In this document: positions 27,011-31,785 of the stretch, piece by piece
Layout of the letters: each line of letters begins with the position of its first letter
Position numbering within the stretch: the first letter of the stretch is position 1
From: a virus
Direction: 5' to 3' (one strand)
IMG/VR virus record: IMGVR_UViG_3300043823_000114
Span: 26,209 to 90,208 of that record
DNA: 64,000 nt
Made by a program: the position numbers and the translations under genes
Notes under the pieces: generated by a model
Database searches by the model: none
Seen by the model: only the letters and a program-made list of their open reading frames with translations
Told to the model about the DNA's origin: nothing

Positions 27011-28027
27011 ATGAGTAATCTATTTAAAAAAGCCGCCCTGATAACGGACATACATTTTGGCCTAAAGTCAAACAGTTCTCTACACAATGAGGATTGTTTG
27101 GCTTTTGTCAAATGGGCCACTGCCAAAGCACGAGAAGAAGGTTGCGAAACTTGTTTCTTTTTGGGTGATTGGCACAATAACCGTGCTAGTATCAACATCT
27201 TAACACTACAGTATAGTTTACAAGCACTAGAGCATTTGAATGATAATTTTTCAAATGTTTATTTTATTCCTGGCAATCACGATCTCTATTATCGGGATAA
27301 GCGTGATGTGCAAAGTGTCGAATGGGCAAAGCATCTCTCTAATATACAGATTTGCAACGATTGGTTTGACAGCGGCGATGTTGTTATTGCTCCTTGGCTA
27401 TGTGGTGATGATCATAAACATCTACGCAAGTTAAAGGGCAAGTATCTATTTGGGCATCTTGAACTTCCAGGTTACTTGATGAACGCAATGGTAGCGATGC
27501 CAGAGCATGGGGAATTCAGAACCGATGACTTGAATCATTTCGAGCATTGTTTCACTGGACATTTTCACAAGAGACAGACTAGAAAGAATGTTACTTACAT
27601 TGGTAACTGTTTCCCACACAACTACGCAGATGCAGGGGATGATGACAGAGGATTATCTATATTAGAATGGGGCAAAGATCCAGAATACCATGCTTGGCCC
27701 GATCAACCCCGGTATCGTGTATTTCAGTTAAGCGATGTTCTAAAGAATACAGAATCTATGCTTCTGCCCAATATGCATGTCAGAGTAAATCTTGACATAG
27801 ATATCAGCTATGAAGAAGCCGCATTTATCAAAGAAACATTCATTGATACATATAAGCTCCGTGAGATTACCTTAATTCCAGCTAAAGTCACCGATTTAAC
27901 TGACTATGAGTTGCAGGGTAATATAGAATTTGAGAGTGTTGATCAGATTGTTACTGGTCAACTCACAAATATCGAAAGCGACAAGTTTAACAAAACTCTA
28001 CTACTAGACATCTACAGAAATCTTTAA
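27011..28027 (+). CDS. gp47: Recombination endonuclease subunit (T4 gp47 / Mre11 / SbcD-like), 338 aa
   Basis: Metallophosphoesterase motifs DIHFG, GDWHN, GNHD, FGH, GHFH. Confidence 0.9.
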   Translation: MSNLFKKAALITDIHFGLKSNSSLHNEDCLAFVKWATAKAREEGCETCFFLGDWHNNRASINILTLQYSLQALEHLNDNFSNVYFIPGNHDLYYRDKRDVQSVEWAKHLSNIQICNDWFDSGDVVIAPWLCGDDHKHLRKLKGKYLFGHLELPGYLMNAMVAMPEHGEFRTDDLNHFEHCFTGHFHKRQTRKNVTYIGNCFPHNYADAGDDDRGLSILEWGKDPEYHAWPDQPRYRVFQLSDVLKNTESMLLPNMHVRVNLDIDISYEEAAFIKETFIDTYKLREITLIPAKVTDLTDYELQGNIEFESVDQIVTGQLTNIESDKFNKTLLLDIYRNL

Positions 28028-29799
28028 TGACATTTAAAATACGAGACCTCGCAGTTAAAAACTTTATGAGTGTGGGTAATGCCACACAAGCAATCAACTT
28101 TGATCGTCGTGACCTAACACTTGTTCTGGGTGAGAACTTAGACTTGGGTGGGGACGATAGTGGTGCAAGAAATGGTACAGGTAAGACTACTATCATCAAT
28201 GCACTGAGTTATGCGTTATACGGTAATGCTCTAACAAACATCAAGAAAGACAATCTTATCAACAAGACCAATGGTAAGAATATGATTGTGACTATTGATT
28301 TTGAGTGCAATGGTATTGACTATCGCATCGAGCGTGGTCGTAAACCTGGCATTATGAAGTTCTTTGTCTCTGGTACAGAGCGAGAAATTACAGACGAAGC
28401 GCAAGGTGATAGCAGAGAAACACAAGCAGAAATAGAGCGTATGTTGGGCATGAGTCACGAAATGTTTAAACACATCGTTGCTCTAAACACATACACAGAA
28501 CCATTTTTAAGTTTAAAAGCTAACGATCAACGACAGATGATCGAACAGTTATTGGGTATTACTTTGCTCAGTGAAAAAGCAGATAAGCTAAAAGAACAGA
28601 TTAAAGAAACCAAAGACTTGATTACTAAAGAAGAATTTAGAATCAAGGCTGTGGGTGATGCAAACAAACGAATACAGGATCAAATCGATGCTTTACTTAG
28701 ACGCCAGAATTTATGGACCACTAAGATACATGACGATGTTACAGCGTTGCAGTCTGCTTATGATCAACTTGCTAAACTTGATATCGAGTCCGAACTCAGG
28801 GCACATCAGAGTCTGGCAATATTCAATGCTAAGTCAAAGCGCATCAACGAACTCAACAACTGGATTAGGCGTTGTGAACTTGATGAACAGCGTGAGCAGA
28901 AAAATATTGACAAACTCAAGAAGGATATTGAAAGTCTAGAGAATCATACTTGCCACAGTTGTGGGCAAGCATTTCACGATGACAAGCAAGAAAAGCTATT
29001 AGAAGAAAAACGCACTGCACTACAGGAAGCCGCATTACAAGCATTGTCAACAAACACTCAGTGGATGGAACACACTGATGCCCTTAAAGAACTGGGTGAG
29101 TTGGGTACAGTTCCAAAAGTATATTACGATAGTGAAAGTGATGCGTTTGAACATCGAAGTAGTATGGGTGCATTGTTGGCTCAAATGAGTGCTAAACAAG
29201 CAGAACAAGATCCATATACTGATCAAATTGCAGAGATGAGAGAACAGGCTCTAGAAGAAATCAGTTTTGATACAATGAACGCACTGGATGACTTAAAGAA
29301 TCACCAAGAGTTCTTGCATAAGTTATTGACTAACAAAGATAGCTTTATCCGTAAACGAATCATTGATCAAAACTTGAGCTACTTAAATGGTCGTTTAGGT
29401 CAGTATCTTGATCGCATTGGATTACCGCACACAGTTAAGTTTAACAATGACTTGACTGTAAGTATCACTGAACTAGGTAGAGATTTAGACTTTGACAACT
29501 TGAGTAGGGGCGAGCGTAATCGTTTGATTCTTAGCTTGAGTTGGGCATTCCGTGATGTATGGGAATCATTATATCAACCCATCAACTTGTTGTTTATTGA
29601 TGAGCTTGTTGACAGTGGTATGGATAGTTCGGGCGTTGAAAATGCTCTTGCTATTCTCAAGAAGATGAGCAGAGATCACAATAAGAGTATTTGGCTAGTC
29701 AGTCACAAAGACGAACTAGCAGGACGGGTAAATAACACCTTAAAAGTTGTTAAGGAAAACGGCTACACAAGTTATAATACAGATGTAGAAATAGTTTAA
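28027..29799 (+). CDS. gp46: Recombination ATPase subunit (T4 gp46 / Rad50 / SbcC-like), 590 aa
   Basis: KNFMSVG; Walker A NGTGKT; coiled coil with CHSC zinc hook; LSRGE signature; Walker B LLFIDE; VSH; stop/start overlap with gp47. Confidence 0.9.
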   Translation: MTFKIRDLAVKNFMSVGNATQAINFDRRDLTLVLGENLDLGGDDSGARNGTGKTTIINALSYALYGNALTNIKKDNLINKTNGKNMIVTIDFECNGIDYRIERGRKPGIMKFFVSGTEREITDEAQGDSRETQAEIERMLGMSHEMFKHIVALNTYTEPFLSLKANDQRQMIEQLLGITLLSEKADKLKEQIKETKDLITKEEFRIKAVGDANKRIQDQIDALLRRQNLWTTKIHDDVTALQSAYDQLAKLDIESELRAHQSLAIFNAKSKRINELNNWIRRCELDEQREQKNIDKLKKDIESLENHTCHSCGQAFHDDKQEKLLEEKRTALQEAALQALSTNTQWMEHTDALKELGELGTVPKVYYDSESDAFEHRSSMGALLAQMSAKQAEQDPYTDQIAEMREQALEEISFDTMNALDDLKNHQEFLHKLLTNKDSFIRKRIIDQNLSYLNGRLGQYLDRIGLPHTVKFNNDLTVSITELGRDLDFDNLSRGERNRLILSLSWAFRDVWESLYQPINLLFIDELVDSGMDSSGVENALAILKKMSRDHNKSIWLVSHKDELAGRVNNTLKVVKENGYTSYNTDVEIV

Positions 29800-29827
29800 T
29801 ATATTTTTAATCAGGGCACATTTAGGC

Positions 29828-29834
29828 ATAACTA
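29828..29834 (+). promoter_or_regulatory. Variant late promoter (ATAACTA) upstream of the GIY-YIG gene
   Basis: One mismatch to ATAAATA, 6 nt before ATG 29841; same spacing as the other apparently leaderless late genes. Confidence 0.35.
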
Positions 29835-29840
29835 TAGTTG

Positions 29841-30281
29841 ATGACATGGATATTTCAAGGAAACCCTGTAGAAGTTTTACCCGATGACTGCGTGGGCTTC
29901 GTATATCTCATCACCAATTGTATATCAGGGCGCAAATACATAGGCAAAAAACTCTCAAAATTTTCTAAAACAACATATAAAACAGTCAAACTCAAAAACG
30001 GCAATAAGAAACGCAAGAAAATTAAATCAAAGATAGATAGCGACTGGCTCACATATTATGGCTCAAATCTCGAACTCAGTAAAGATGTAATAGCATTGGG
30101 TGCTGAAAATTTTACAAGGGAAATACTATACCTTTGTAAAAGTAAAGCAGAATGTAGTTATATTGAGGCACGAGAACAATTCACAAACAAAGTTTTAGAA
30201 AGCTCAGACTGGTACAATGGACAGATATCAGTCAGAGTACATGGCTCCCACATTCTCAATAAAATTCAGTTAAACGGTTAA
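29841..30281 (+). CDS. Stand-alone GIY-YIG family nuclease, 146 aa (ATG 29841; TTG 29838 alternative)
   Basis: GFVYLITN...GRKYIGKK; Y.GS; F.REIL; E....F......YN motifs; Lys-rich insertion KTVKLKNGNKKRKKIKSK; no C-terminal DNA-binding extension. Confidence 0.8.
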   Translation: MTWIFQGNPVEVLPDDCVGFVYLITNCISGRKYIGKKLSKFSKTTYKTVKLKNGNKKRKKIKSKIDSDWLTYYGSNLELSKDVIALGAENFTREILYLCKSKAECSYIEAREQFTNKVLESSDWYNGQISVRVHGSHILNKIQLNG

Positions 30282-30701
30282 GGCTCACACAGGCCAATTT
30301 CTTGTGTATATGATAAGAGGACCCAGGGTCGCTCGGACATAAATCTCTGCCGTTAAGAGTGCTCAACCACTACCCATTTGGATGAAGACAGCTAATGCCG
30401 CTGTTTGGTTGCTTGAATAGGAATAATTATGGCTAAAAAGACGACACAGCGATGTGTCACGGTTATTATGTAAGTTAGCGTTTATATAATAACTCGCCGT
30501 TGAAAAAGACGGGGATGGAGGTACCGGTCAACCGCCTCTGCTAAACACCCCAACGCTAAGTGATGTGCTACTCGGATGAAGGCAACTTCAAACTTTTTGC
30601 CCGGGAAACCGGGCAAAGTGTGACGATTAATCTGGATGAATAGCCCATCGCTCCGCGAGAATACCGATGATAAATGTTGTTGAGCGATAGCGAAAACAAC
30701 A
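30282..30701 (+). ncRNA. Putative large structured non-coding RNA (or ssDNA structure) directly downstream of the GIY-YIG gene
   Basis: Largest non-coding gap in the window, filled with inverted repeats: ACACAGG/CTTGTGT, CAACCA/TGGTTG, ACAGC/GCTGT, GACACA-GCGA-TGTGTC, 13-bp stem 30461-30494 whose loop TTAGCGTT complements AACGCTAA (30552-30559), TTTGCCCGG-GAAA-CCGGGCAAA, CATCG/CGATG, TGTTGTT/AACAACA. G-U pairs and GNRA loops favour the plus strand. Confidence 0.65.
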
Positions 30702-30719
30702 GATGTGCTTTGCACATCT
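30694..30719 (-). terminator. Rho-independent terminator of the minus-strand chaperone genes
   Basis: Minus strand AGATGTGC-AAA-GCACATCT followed by GTTGTTT, directly after the TGA stop. Confidence 0.55.
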
Positions 30720-30937
30720 CAAAAGAATGGAAGCCCAGACTTCTTAGTTGTTTCTAAATGACCCTTGACGATATCTGAAATAATAGTTCTTTCTTCAAGA
30801 CTTAGTATCATTGCTTCGTCATAGGTGATACTTCCCCGCATATACCAACACAGTGATAAGATTTCATGTTTGAGGGCTTTTGCTGATTCCTCAATCTTAT
30901 TAATCTCCTCTAAGATTTCGGAGTCAGACATCCGCAA
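30719..30937 (-). CDS. Small baseplate/tail assembly protein (gp51-like or lambda T-like frameshift extension), 72 aa
   Basis: CWYMRG.ITY.EA..LS.EER..I....K..LETTKKSGLPFF; in the -1 frame relative to the upstream chaperone gene. Confidence 0.6.
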   Translation of the reverse strand: MRMSDSEILEEINKIEESAKALKHEILSLCWYMRGSITYDEAMILSLEERTIISDIVKGHLETTKKSGLPFF

Positions 30938-30942
30938 AAGCC

Positions 30943-31785
30943 TTATCCGAAAAAACTGCTCTGATCAAATGTGAGATTAGTTTTGAACTCTTTCTGGCAT
31001 TCTTCATTTGCACAGGTCAATGTCAGTGGTGGAATTTTATAGAAATTCGTTAGTTCTTCCATAGAGTCTTTGACACTAGAGTATACAGCACGACTACAGC
31101 TTTCTAGAAACTCTGCAATCATTTCTCTATCTTTTACTTCAATACCATCTTCGGTAGTAACGCTATAAATCCCATCAATAACTAGATTTAGATTCAACTC
31201 ACGGATCTTGTTAAAACTAAAATTGAAGTTTGCCAGTTTCTGCTCTTCGGTTAGTTCTTCATTTTTAATAATGTTTTGAATCAGCTTCTCTTGTTCAAAG
31301 TTAATCATATTGGCATTGTTCATATTCTTATACATTTGTGGTCTGAACTTAAAAGTTAGTCCGTCAAAGTTGTATGATTTAGAATAATCTGCTTTACCAA
31401 CACTGTCTAGTACAGCATTTAAGTCTACGCTGTATTCGTCGGACTGATTGCAATGTGGGCAAGTACTATTGAAATCCATCGCTTTACCATAACTTGCCAA
31501 TCTCATTGCAATGAATATTGGGTCTAGGTCCACTGCTGGGATTTCCCATGGATCTTTGATTGCTGGACAGCAACTCTTAATCACATCTGCAATAGCTTGC
31601 CCACTGAGTAATGCGTCTGGAGTTTTTAGTGATAGTTCATCTCGGACTGTCATTGGGTACACTGGAATAGTACCGTTTGCAGCCAGTTCTAATCCGTTTT
31701 CGCTGTAAAAGCGCCCTTTACTGGGTAAGCTGAGATAAAGTGCAGGCTGTCTGAAATGTTTTGCCAATGGATTAGCGGTAACCAT
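30943..31785 (-). CDS. gp26: Baseplate hub / tail assembly chaperone (T4 gp26-like), 280 aa
   Basis: NPL..HFRQP.LY..LPS.G.FY; V.PMT.RDE...KTPDALL.G; DLD.I.IA.R.ASYG; CPHC and C...C zinc-binding pairs; ends SFFG. Confidence 0.65.
   Translation of the reverse strand: MVTANPLAKHFRQPALYLSLPSKGRFYSENGLELAANGTIPVYPMTVRDELSLKTPDALLSGQAIADVIKSCCPAIKDPWEIPAVDLDPIFIAMRLASYGKAMDFNSTCPHCNQSDEYSVDLNAVLDSVGKADYSKSYNFDGLTFKFRPQMYKNMNNANMINFEQEKLIQNIIKNEELTEEQKLANFNFSFNKIRELNLNLVIDGIYSVTTEDGIEVKDREMIAEFLESCSRAVYSSVKDSMEELTNFYKIPPLTLTCANEECQKEFKTNLTFDQSSFFG

What the first reader, a model, noticed from the sequence alone, without database searches (positions are those of the whole stretch)
29828..30719. Minimal GIY-YIG nuclease followed immediately by a ~430-nt pseudoknotted RNA: candidate nuclease-RNA (possibly RNA-guided) system
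Seen: a 146-aa GIY-YIG protein made of the catalytic domain plus a Lys/Arg-rich insertion, with no C-terminal DNA-recognition extension. From its stop codon to the convergent gene runs the only long non-coding stretch of the window, almost fully base-paired. It contains ACACAGG/CTTGTGT (30287-30307), CAACCA/TGGTTG enclosing ACAGC/GCTGT (30364-30411), GACACA-GCGA-TGTGTC (30443-30458), a 13-bp stem (30461-30494) whose loop TTAGCGTT matches AACGCTAA at 30552-30559 (8-bp pseudoknot), a GGGG/CCCC-closed GGAGGT/GCCTCT domain, TTTGCCCGG-GAAA-CCGGGCAAA (30596-30617) and two further stems. No terminator separates gene and RNA. Established: homing GIY-YIG enzymes such as I-TevI get specificity from appended DNA-binding domains, whereas IscB and TnpB get it from an adjacent structured RNA. 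Inference: the gene and RNA are co-transcribed and form a ribonucleoprotein, perhaps guiding cleavage next to the gp46/47 recombination genes. Alternatives are an independent large phage ncRNA or a replication origin.
Basis: partly seen in the sequence, partly recalled or inferred. Interest (0 to 1): 0.9.

Follow-up and report, generated by a model that had tools for sequence, protein, structure and literature searches.

The report
Twin-box Polynucleobacter-1 phage RNA beside nuclease
The gene-free 440 bases behind a small nuclease gene of this uncultured freshwater T4-like phage encode a real, knotted non-coding RNA. Its first third is the catalogued but unexplained Polynucleobacter-1 motif. 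The nuclease looks like a habitual neighbour rather than an RNA-guided partner.

Summary
Window 30282-~30719 (+) is a structured RNA gene with heavy covariation, including the predicted loop pseudoknot and a second knot. It follows a 147-aa GIY-YIG-only protein with no predicted terminator between them.

It is not new as a family. Bases 30282-30414 match Rfam RF01718 (Polynucleobacter-1, 86 bits). Weinberg et al. 2010 already noted that this motif lies downstream of PSSM2_218-like genes, and that is this nuclease family (41% identity). This scan has met the same RNA many times on other DNA (388 notes, at least 274 genomes).

The uncatalogued 3' core (about 30461-30642) is shared by at least three RNA types. 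It carries one 7-mer twice (GGATGAA at 30574 and 30634). The two copies are identical in 98 of 100 RNAs through at least 43 independent joint changes, and I found no complement anywhere.

The RNA-guided reading is poorly supported:
- The nuclease family occurs in six cultured phages with no long gap behind the gene. In the five scanned with my model there is no match.
- The RNA also occurs next to a PD-(D/E)XK nuclease, or next to no nuclease.
- Genes are sometimes inserted between the nuclease and the RNA.
- There is no long variable guide.
- Nuclease residues do not track the boxes.

The function remains unknown.

The parts
29838..30281 (+). Minimal GIY-YIG nuclease gene (147 aa from TTG; ATG at 29841). 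It belongs to the T4-GC 213 / phrog_447 family, which databases mislabel 'NAD synthetase'.
   Evidence: Pfam PF19835, E 7.8e-32. phrog_447, E 5e-37. The fold is closest to the I-TevI catalytic domain (Z 8.4), PD-T4-3 (7.4), UvrC-N (5.6) and T4 EndoII (5.5). It is 41% identical to P-SSM2 PSSM2_218. Invariant residues include Y23, Y34, G36, R94, E110 and N127.
30282..30414 (+). 5' domain of the RNA, equal to Rfam RF01718 Polynucleobacter-1 (three hairpins plus a long-range helix).
   Evidence: cmscan gives 86 bits against a gathering score of 37, covering model positions 1-141. Compensatory changes appear in all helices.
30443..30458 (+). Hairpin GACACA-GCGA-TGTGTC in the linker between the two domains.
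   Evidence: Five pairs, with 10-14 sequences each showing changes on both sides (columns 236-240 with 255-259).
30461..30494 (+). 13-bp hairpin whose loop (30475-30481, UUAGCGU) pairs with 30553-30559 (ACGCUAA). This is pseudoknot 1.
   Evidence: Helices 1 and 2. All 13 stem pairs and all 7 knot pairs change on both sides. Type-2 RNAs carry CUAUUCU/AGAAUAG at the same place.
30496..30551 (+). Core knot. Helix 30497-30503 with 30528-30534 is interleaved with helices 30511-30514/30548-30551 and 30518-30521/30535-30538. It includes the near-invariant GGUACCGGNCAACCGCC.
   Evidence: Helices 3, 5 and 6. The GAGG/CCUC helix is 100% paired, with 16 double changes. Invariant columns are listed.
30574..30580 (+). 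Twin box A (GGAUGAA), preceded by ACUC.
   Evidence: Identical to box B in 98 of 100 RNAs across 12 variants. Mutual information is 0.9-1.1 bit with the same position of box B only. There are at least 43 concerted changes on a tree.
30595..30618 (+). Hairpin UUUUGCCCGG-GAAA-CCGGGCAAAG between the two boxes.
   Evidence: Helix 7, where 6 of 9 pairs change on both sides. The extra pair 30595/30618 shows 5 pair types.
30634..30640 (+). Twin box B (GGAUGAA), preceded by AUCU.
30675..30701 (+). 3'-tail hairpin TGTTGTT / AACAACA with the conserved loop GAGCGAUAGCGAA.
   Evidence: The same loop motif GAGCGNNAGCGAA sits between covarying arms in most of 112 distinct tails. Variants such as GAACGAAGUGAA and GAGUGGUAACGAA keep an inner 2-bp stem.
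30701..30719 (.). Terminal hairpin AGATGTGC-TTT-GCACATCT. It is the predicted terminator of the convergent minus-strand genes and the likely 3' end of the RNA.
   Evidence: The terminator scan predicts it on the minus strand, followed by GTTGTTTTCG. An equivalent hairpin follows the RNA in most related loci.

Best explanation
Window 30282 to about 30719 (+) is a full-length copy of a large phage non-coding RNA of about 440 nt with two pseudoknots.

**Anatomy**
- The 5' third is the orphan Rfam motif Polynucleobacter-1.
- The uncatalogued 3' core is the universal part of the family.
- The core presents the same 7-nt word twice (GGAUGAA), on either side of a conserved hairpin.

**The neighbouring gene**
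- The upstream gene encodes a stand-alone GIY-YIG nuclease of a family that is widespread in T4-like phages (T4-GC 213).
- That family works without this RNA elsewhere.
- In this phage lineage the nuclease and the RNA are fixed neighbours. They are probably read from one transcript, because no terminator is predicted between them. This is inferred.
- They sit in a variable island between the gp46/47 recombination genes and the baseplate genes.

**How it most likely works (inferred, not shown)**
- The RNA acts on its own as a folded particle, not as a guide.
- Its two boxes must stay identical because they are matched against each other. Either they touch directly (for example homo-base pairs between parallel strands), or they are used in turn by one process that needs two identical sites.
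- A fast-co-evolving outside reader is a less likely cause of the identity.

What the particle does in infection is unknown.
For: **The RNA is real and lies on the plus strand**
- 38 of 71 predicted pairs show compensatory changes.
- 82.9% of cells are paired, against 68.4% in shuffles and 40-51% with slid partners.
- G-U pairs are frequent in the helices, for example GU:22 and UG:21 at single pairs. On the other strand these would be A-C mismatches.

**Family membership**
- RF01718 scores 86 bits.
- The 2010 supplement places the motif downstream of PSSM2_218-like genes. PSSM2_218 is 41% identical to this nuclease.
- The raw 2010 alignment already runs on through ...GGUACCG...AAUCUGGAUGAAA in some rows.

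**The 3' core is universal**
- Model R1 finds it in type-1 and type-2 RNAs at 110-182 bits.
- It finds type 3 weakly (20-29 bits), at the right place and strand.
- Type 2 has no RF01718 match.

**The RNA is independent of the nuclease**
- Among 57 RNA-centred loci, 51 have the GIY-YIG gene upstream, 8 of them with a gene inserted in between. Four have a PD-(D/E)XK gene (PF24608) instead, once downstream of the RNA. Two have neither.
- In Melnitz, ACP17, P-RSM4, BUCT-ZZ01, phiM12 and P-SSM2 the nuclease has other neighbours and no long gap.
- R1 finds nothing in the five genomes searched.

**The twin boxes**
- 98 of 100 RNAs have identical boxes.
- Each box position couples only with the same position of the other box.
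- Positions 1, 5 and 7 changed at least 22, 16 and 13 times, each time jointly.
- No complement is enriched in the RNA, its flanks or the window.
- Nuclease residues track the boxes no better than gp46, gp26-like or orf72 residues do.
Against: - No transcript data could be obtained, because only DNA runs hold the stretch. Transcription, the RNA's ends and co-transcription with the nuclease gene are therefore inferred.
- The linkage to a nuclease gene is very strong. 55 of 57 loci have some nuclease next to the RNA. It survives one rearrangement (L085) and a swap of nuclease family. That pattern would also fit a functional nuclease-RNA relation.
- R1 may miss very divergent RNAs in the cultured phages, since type 3 scores only 20-29 bits.
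- The idea that the boxes contact each other rests on logic alone. No structural test was possible. Four of the seven box positions are nearly invariant, which also fits an outside sequence-specific reader.
Confidence: 0.7

Rival explanations
1. Nuclease-RNA ribonucleoprotein. The RNA binds the domain-less GIY-YIG protein (or the PD-(D/E)XK protein that replaces it). It then supplies target specificity, for example through the two 7-nt boxes, or switches the enzyme on or off.
For: - The RNA shares the nuclease's strand and abuts its stop codon, and no terminator is predicted between them.
- 89% of RNA-centred loci have the GIY-YIG gene upstream. 7% have another nuclease family at the same spot, and in L085 that gene sits beside the RNA after a rearrangement.
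- The protein has no DNA-binding extension.
Against: - The nuclease family occurs in 507 cultured-phage records at under 60% identity.
- Six of these were inspected and have no long gap after the gene. Five were scanned and give no R1 match.
- Two RNA loci have no nuclease neighbour.
- Genes of 0.8-1.8 kb sit between nuclease and RNA in several loci.
- There is no long variable tract. The boxes are only 7 nt and have no matching targets in the window or flanks.
- Nuclease residues do not co-vary with the boxes above background.
- T4 EndoII shows that a GIY-YIG enzyme of this size can work without an extension (for the fold match; the enzymology is from established knowledge).
Confidence: 0.07
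2. Homing scenario. The nuclease is, or was, a free-standing homing endonuclease that inserts beside the highly conserved RNA gene. The RNA gene is its landing pad and a co-converted marker, not its partner.
For: - The pair sits in a variable island. There are 0-2 kb of differing genes between gp46 and the nuclease, and 0-3 kb between the RNA and orf72.
- The nuclease is more conserved (70-80% identity) than the flanking gp26-like gene (27-53%).
- A different nuclease family occupies the same slot in some phages. Established knowledge of T4 seg/mob genes shows this pattern at homing hot spots.
- The Pfam and PHROG matches are to SegE-type homing endonucleases.
Against: - The gene is nearly universal in this lineage rather than sporadic.
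- It lacks the DNA-binding domains that Seg enzymes and I-TevI use.
- The same family is a conserved gene cluster at other loci in cyanophages.
- I found no RNA-bearing T4-like locus with an empty slot.
Confidence: 0.1
3. Cis-acting 3' untranslated element. The structured region is the 3' end of the nuclease mRNA and controls its stability or translation.
For: The region starts at the stop codon and no terminator is predicted in between.
Against: - A conserved fold of about 440 nt with two pseudoknots is far beyond what known 3' stabilisers need (inference).
- The RNA occurs behind other genes, such as MazG-like, PD-(D/E)XK and inserted genes, and once upstream of the nuclease gene.
- Distant nuclease homologues lack it.
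Confidence: 0.04
4. DNA element. The hairpins act in DNA, for example as a replication origin or packaging site, rather than in RNA.
For: The region lies next to replication and recombination genes and is rich in inverted repeats.
Against: - Many helix positions alternate with G-U pairs on the plus strand only.
- Pseudoknots and conserved single-stranded loops are typical of RNA.
- The 5' domain matches an RNA covariance model at 86 bits.
Confidence: 0.02

Closest known systems
Polynucleobacter-1 RNA motif (Rfam RF01718; Weinberg et al. 2010, Genome Biol 11:R31, PMC2864571)
   Same: Window 30282-30414 matches the full model at 86 bits. The setting is the same, downstream of PSSM2_218-like genes in fresh-water sequence. 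The function is unknown in both.
   Different: - The Rfam model covers only the first 141 positions. The RNA continues for about 300 nt more, with two pseudoknots, the twin boxes and tail hairpins.
- The 3' core also occurs without the Polynucleobacter-1 domain, in types 2 and 3.
- Part of the extension is visible in the raw 2010 alignment but was not described.
Large orphan ncRNAs linked to phages (GOLLD, ROOL; named from my own knowledge, not tested here)
   Same: They are several hundred nucleotides long, intricately folded, found in phages or prophages, and have no known function.
   Different: There is no sequence or model match. The Rfam scan at E up to 10 gives nothing for 30415-30718. 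Twin identical boxes are not a described feature of those RNAs, to my knowledge.
OMEGA systems (IscB or TnpB with omega-RNA; HEARO RNA)
   Same: A nuclease gene lies next to a large structured RNA on the same strand.
   Different: - The nuclease fold differs (GIY-YIG or PD-(D/E)XK).
- There is no long guide segment.
- Co-occurrence is not obligate.
- I saw no transposon ends.
T4 Seg and I-TevI homing endonucleases, and T4 EndoII (GIY-YIG enzymes)
   Same: The catalytic fold is the same (Z 8.4 to 1LN0, 5.5 to 2WSH). The GIY, YIG, Glu and Asn positions are conserved. Like EndoII, it is a stand-alone domain of about 140 aa.
   Different: It lacks the C-terminal DNA-binding modules of Seg and I-TevI. 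It carries an inserted basic beta-hairpin at residues 41-67. Its substrate is unknown.

Membership tests
Rfam RF01718 Polynucleobacter-1 | The covariance-model score reaches the curated gathering score (37 bits) over the whole model. | tested here: met
   86 bits, model positions 1-141 of 141, window 30282-30414 plus strand.
Rfam RF01718 Polynucleobacter-1 | Location downstream of GOS11034 / PSSM2_218-like genes, as described in 2010. | tested here: met
   The supplement text states this. The upstream protein is 41% identical to PSSM2_218, E 3e-20.
RNA-guided nuclease systems (OMEGA / CRISPR-like) | A variable guide segment (about 16 nt or more) joined to a conserved scaffold. | tested here: not met
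   Alignments A1-A3 show only covarying stems, optional inserts and two 7-nt boxes that are identical to each other. The 3' tail is made of conserved hairpins.
RNA-guided nuclease systems (OMEGA / CRISPR-like) | Obligate co-occurrence of the nuclease family and the RNA. | tested here: not met
   The nuclease occurs without the RNA in the cultured phages inspected. The RNA occurs with PD-(D/E)XK or with no nuclease.
RNA-guided nuclease systems (OMEGA / CRISPR-like) | The guide matches target sequences in phage or host DNA. | tested here: inconclusive
   No box complement is enriched in the window or in 1 Mb of related flanks. The host genome is unknown.
Seg / I-TevI-type GIY-YIG homing endonucleases | An N-terminal GIY-YIG catalytic domain. 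| tested here: met
   PF19835, E 7.8e-32. Z 8.4 to 1LN0.
Seg / I-TevI-type GIY-YIG homing endonucleases | A C-terminal DNA-binding extension that gives site specificity. | tested here: not met
   The protein has 147 aa, and the profile covers residues 4-130. The model shows no second domain.
Seg / I-TevI-type GIY-YIG homing endonucleases | Sporadic presence among otherwise collinear relatives. | tested here: not met
   The gene is present in 51 of 57 RNA-centred loci, and more than 571 relatives exist in IMG/VR.
T4 EndoII-like stand-alone GIY-YIG nucleases | A single-domain enzyme of about 135 aa with the EndoII fold. | tested here: inconclusive
   Z 5.5, rmsd 3.7 over 84 residues to 2WSH. This ranks below I-TevI and PD-T4-3. 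There is no sequence-level match to any PDB chain.

The most novel reading that the evidence does not exclude
The RNA is the specificity or control subunit of whichever small nuclease is encoded beside it (GIY-YIG here, PD-(D/E)XK in some relatives). Its two identical 7-nt boxes would read the two arms of a repeated or palindromic nucleic-acid site. That would make it an RNA-programmed nuclease of a kind not yet described.
Probability: 0.04. Interest if true: 0.95.

Novelty: new member of a known kind. Interest (0 to 1): 0.45.

Why it matters
This is one of the most abundant unexplained RNAs of fresh-water T4-like phages.
- More than 571 nuclease-linked loci exist in IMG/VR.

Rfam holds only its first third. 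The full molecule is a doubly knotted RNA of 400-470 nt, in the size and complexity class of ribozymes and of RNA-only assemblies.

The rule that two 7-nt boxes stay identical through dozens of independent changes is unusual. It gives a sharp handle for experiments: change one box, then change both.

For the scan's purposes, the attractive idea of an RNA-guided GIY-YIG nuclease is not supported by the evidence here, and the gene-RNA adjacency itself was already recorded in 2010.

Tried and rejected
- **Cultured-phage DNA search.** blastn of 29800-30760 against 50,697 cultured phage records gave no match.
- **Prokaryote genome scan.** The pattern scan with GGTACCGGNCAACCGCC returned 120 stretches. 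Model R1 showed only the motif itself or noise, so these are chance matches in GC-rich genomes. The bacterial context could therefore not be studied.
- **Second viral pattern.** A pattern taken from the Polynucleobacter chromosomal copy gave 9 stretches, almost all inside coding sequence. L332/L333 was not followed up.
- **Expression.** No RNA holder is listed among the public runs, only DNA runs. I laid no reads.
- **PDB sequence search of the nuclease.** Nothing significant. Foldseek alone was weak. The wide structural search then gave the GIY-YIG matches.
- **Internal partner of the boxes.** Mutual information found none. Pair scanning was swamped by the split between type 1 and type 2. Own-box complements were not enriched. 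A small cluster 126-308 nt downstream of box A lies mostly inside a conserved convergent gene, so I read it as chance.
- **Local folds around the boxes.** Inconsistent, so I cannot say whether the boxes sit in hairpin loops.
- **Third pseudoknot.** I considered UCGCUC pairing with the GAGCGA of the tail-hairpin loop. The loop has its own inner 2-bp stem with covariation, so I do not claim this knot.
- **Other RNA classes considered.** A tmRNA or tRNA reading was dropped because ARAGORN found none. For a group I intron, RNase P or known ribozymes, no Rfam family matches the 3' part at E up to 10.
- **Translational hop.** The idea was a hop between matched codons followed by stops (GGA-UGA at both boxes). 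I rejected it because no conserved reading frame enters either box.
- **Literature.** Searches found no paper on the extended RNA.
Full report
**Setting.** The window is part of an IMG/VR virus record of a T4-like phage. The order of genes is:
- gp47-like (27011-28027);
- gp46-like (28027-29799);
- a 147-aa ORF (29838-30281);
- a gap;
- then two convergent genes, a 72-aa ORF (30719-30937, minus) and a T4 baseplate-family gene (30943-31785, minus).

**The protein.**
- The ORF matches only Pfam PF19835, the SegE-type GIY-YIG domain, over residues 4-130.
- It also matches PHROG 447, a family of about 148-aa proteins mislabelled 'NAD synthetase'.
- A model built on 23 relatives (pLDDT 88.7) is one domain with a basic beta-hairpin inserted at residues 41-67.
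- Its best structural matches are all GIY-YIG enzymes: I-TevI catalytic domain (Z 8.4), PD-T4-3 (7.4), UvrC N-domain (5.6) and T4 EndoII (5.5).
- The GIY and YIG tyrosines, an Arg, Glu110 and Asn127 are invariant, so I take it to be an active nuclease. This is inference.

- 30282-30942 is the largest stretch of the window without an ORF of 100 aa or more.
- The plus strand folds better than shuffles (z -3.5).
- Rfam finds one family in the whole window: RF01718 Polynucleobacter-1 at 30282-30414, 86 bits against a gathering score of 37.
- Nothing in Rfam matches 30415-30718, even at E up to 10. No tRNA or tmRNA is found.

**Relatives.**
- A scan of IMG/VR for the nuclease gave more than 571 relatives. 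I kept 80 loci.
- Iterated nhmmer showed that a conserved element of about 356 nt follows the nuclease gene in most of them.
Of 71 predicted pairs, 38 have double changes.

**Pair counts on the 3' part.** On 78 non-redundant sequences I counted pairs for a hand-drawn structure that includes both knots.
- 82.9% of cells pair, against 68.4% in shuffles and 40-51% when the partners are slid.
- 496 cells have changes on both sides, against 187 expected.
- All seven pairs of the loop pseudoknot (30475-30481 with 30553-30559) change on both sides.
- The GAGG/CCUC helix is 100% paired.
- That helix and the GGGG/CCCC helix interleave with helix 30497-30503/30528-30534, which makes a second knot.
- G-U pairs are frequent in the helices on the plus strand, so this is RNA and the strand is that of the nuclease.

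**The 3' tail.**
- It holds a hairpin (30675-30701) whose loop GAGCGNNAGCGAA is conserved in most relatives.
- It ends in a hairpin (30701-30719) that the scan calls as the terminator of the convergent genes.
- No plus-strand terminator is predicted between the nuclease gene and the RNA.

**Three RNA types.**
- Type 1 (this window) has the Polynucleobacter-1 domain.
- Type 2 has another 5' domain, with no RF01718 match in 20 loci, but the same 3' core.
- Type 3 is more divergent.
- A covariance model of the core (R1) scores 110-182 bits on types 1 and 2. It scores 20-29 bits on type 3, at the right place and strand.
- The universal part is therefore the uncatalogued core, roughly 30461-30642.

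**What was already known.**
- The 2010 supplement says most Polynucleobacter-1 RNAs lie downstream of GOS11034 genes 'with possible homology to PSSM2_218'.
- PSSM2_218 of cyanophage P-SSM2 (T4-GC 213, 145 aa) is 41% identical to the window's nuclease, E 3e-20.
- The raw 2010 alignment already runs through the core in some rows.
- It also shows the Polynucleobacter chromosomal copy with ...ACUC AGCGAAA... and ...AUCU AGCGAAA....
- So the family and its gene neighbour are known. The full architecture is not described there or in Rfam.
- Earlier notes of this scan describe the same RNA on many other genomes (388 notes in at least 274 genomes). They reach similar conclusions.
- I reached the twin-box result before reading them.

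**The twin boxes.**
- GGATGAA occurs three times in the 64-kb window, all inside the RNA.
- The copies at 30574 and 30634 follow ACUC and AUCU, on either side of hairpin 30595-30618.
- In 100 RNAs aligned to R1, 98 carry the same 7-mer at both places, in 12 variants. Examples are GGAUGAA, AGAUGAU, GGAUAAU, AGACGAA, GCAUAAU, UGGUAAU, AUGAAGA and ACGAAAU.
- Each variable position shares 0.9-1.1 bit with the same position of the other box and with no other core column.
- On a tree built without the box columns, positions 1, 5 and 7 changed at least 22, 16 and 13 times, each time in both boxes. An average site outside the boxes changes 13 times.
- The boxes are not faster than the rest overall. 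They are simply always changed together.
- The third GGAUGAA, in the 5' domain, does not follow them.

**Search for a reader of the boxes.**
- Own-box complements (Watson-Crick plus G-U) are not enriched from -430 to +130 of the RNA: 60 sites against 69.6 for other boxes.
- They are not enriched in 1 Mb of flanks: 0.075 against 0.063 per kb.
- They are not enriched in the window.
- My reasoning, which is inference:
  - A protein would have to switch specificity dozens of times.
  - A pairing partner with U opposite position 1 would tolerate a G in one box and an A in the other, which is almost never seen.
  - The simplest logic is that the boxes are compared with each other.
  - That could be direct contact of parallel strands through like-with-like pairs. 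It could also be a process that moves between two identical sites.
- I could not test this.

**Is the nuclease the partner?**

Points for:
- In 57 RNA-centred loci with enough upstream DNA, 51 have the GIY-YIG gene upstream on the same strand.
- In the nuclease-centred set, every locus with enough downstream DNA has the RNA except L073 and L080.

Points against:
- Eight of the 51 loci have a gene inserted between the nuclease and the RNA.
- Four loci have an unrelated PD-(D/E)XK gene instead (PF24608, PHROG 'RusA-like resolvase'). In L085 it lies downstream of the RNA in a rearranged setting.
- Two loci have neither nuclease. L090 has a MazG-like gene upstream and an exoribonuclease nearby. 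L157 has bacterial-looking genes upstream.
- The nuclease family is in 507 cultured-phage records at under 60% identity.
- In Melnitz, ACP17, P-RSM4, BUCT-ZZ01, phiM12 and P-SSM2 it has other neighbours and no long gap.
- R1 finds nothing in the five whole genomes searched.
- Nuclease residues share at most 0.27-0.35 bit with box positions. That is no more than orf72, gp26-like or gp46 residues share (0.28-0.62).
- There is no long variable tract that could serve as a guide.

I therefore read the nuclease as a fixed neighbour, perhaps on the same transcript. I give the ribonucleoprotein idea about 7%.

**The homing reading (about 10%).**
- It fits the variable island, the swap of nuclease families and the high conservation of the nuclease relative to its flanks.
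- It does not fit the gene's near-universal presence or its lack of a DNA-binding domain.

**What could not be done.** No RNA sequencing run holds this stretch, so expression and the RNA's ends are inferred. The scan of prokaryote genomes gave only chance matches.

**Verdict.**
- The object is a new copy of a known orphan RNA family. Its full architecture and twin-box rule are uncatalogued, though this scan has already seen them repeatedly.

Noticed in passing
L099:3893-4423 (-), L134:335-853 (-), L148:9422-9925 (-), L085:8380-8883 (+): In a few related phages a 167-176-aa PD-(D/E)XK protein (Pfam PF24608, PHROG 'RusA-like Holliday junction resolvase') takes the place of the GIY-YIG gene beside the RNA. 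In L085 it lies downstream of the RNA, and gp26-like and orf72 lie upstream on the same strand.
   Followed up: partly
L157:7722-7921 and flanks (IMGVR_UViG_3300016476_000328): An RNA copy with twin box ACGAAAU sits between bacterial-looking genes and three ORFs. The bacterial-looking genes are a TctC/Bug-like protein (named by eye, not tested) and a PNP_UDP-family protein. The first ORF has a GS...DxD motif like a nucleotidyltransferase. The second is weakly GNAT-like. The third has a KWDG motif like a ligase. The motifs were read by eye only.
   Followed up: partly
L011:3151-3383, L027:3112-3337, L039:3054-3271 (insert after the CCUCUG strand of the core): Some RNAs carry a 30-55-nt insert made of repeated TTATAGT / CTATAGTCAA units at one fixed place in the core. 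Others have a plain hairpin there.
   Followed up: no
window 30943-30962 / 30719-30937 (minus strand): Earlier notes of this scan propose a -1 frameshift at T-TTT-TTC that would join the gp26-like gene to the 72-aa ORF. I only saw that the pair is conserved and adjacent in nearly all related loci.
   Followed up: no
L073:2920-4059, L080:2926-4071, L042:2930-3607, L068:2931-3761: In some phages a 225-381-aa ORF follows the nuclease gene directly. In L073 and L080 no RNA is found within the 2.5 kb held.
   Followed up: no
L324:3019-3091 (Prochlorococcus phage P-RSM4): In this cyanophage the homologous nuclease gene is followed within 150 nt by a tRNA-Arg gene instead of the large RNA.
   Followed up: no
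L244:6568-6757 (-) (Phocaeicola MAG) and L332:8200-8750: There is a weak full-length R1 match (21 bits, E 0.055) in a gut Bacteroidota contig. A non-coding stretch in L332/L333 has a GGAGAAAGCGAAACCGCC core. Both may be chance.
   Followed up: no
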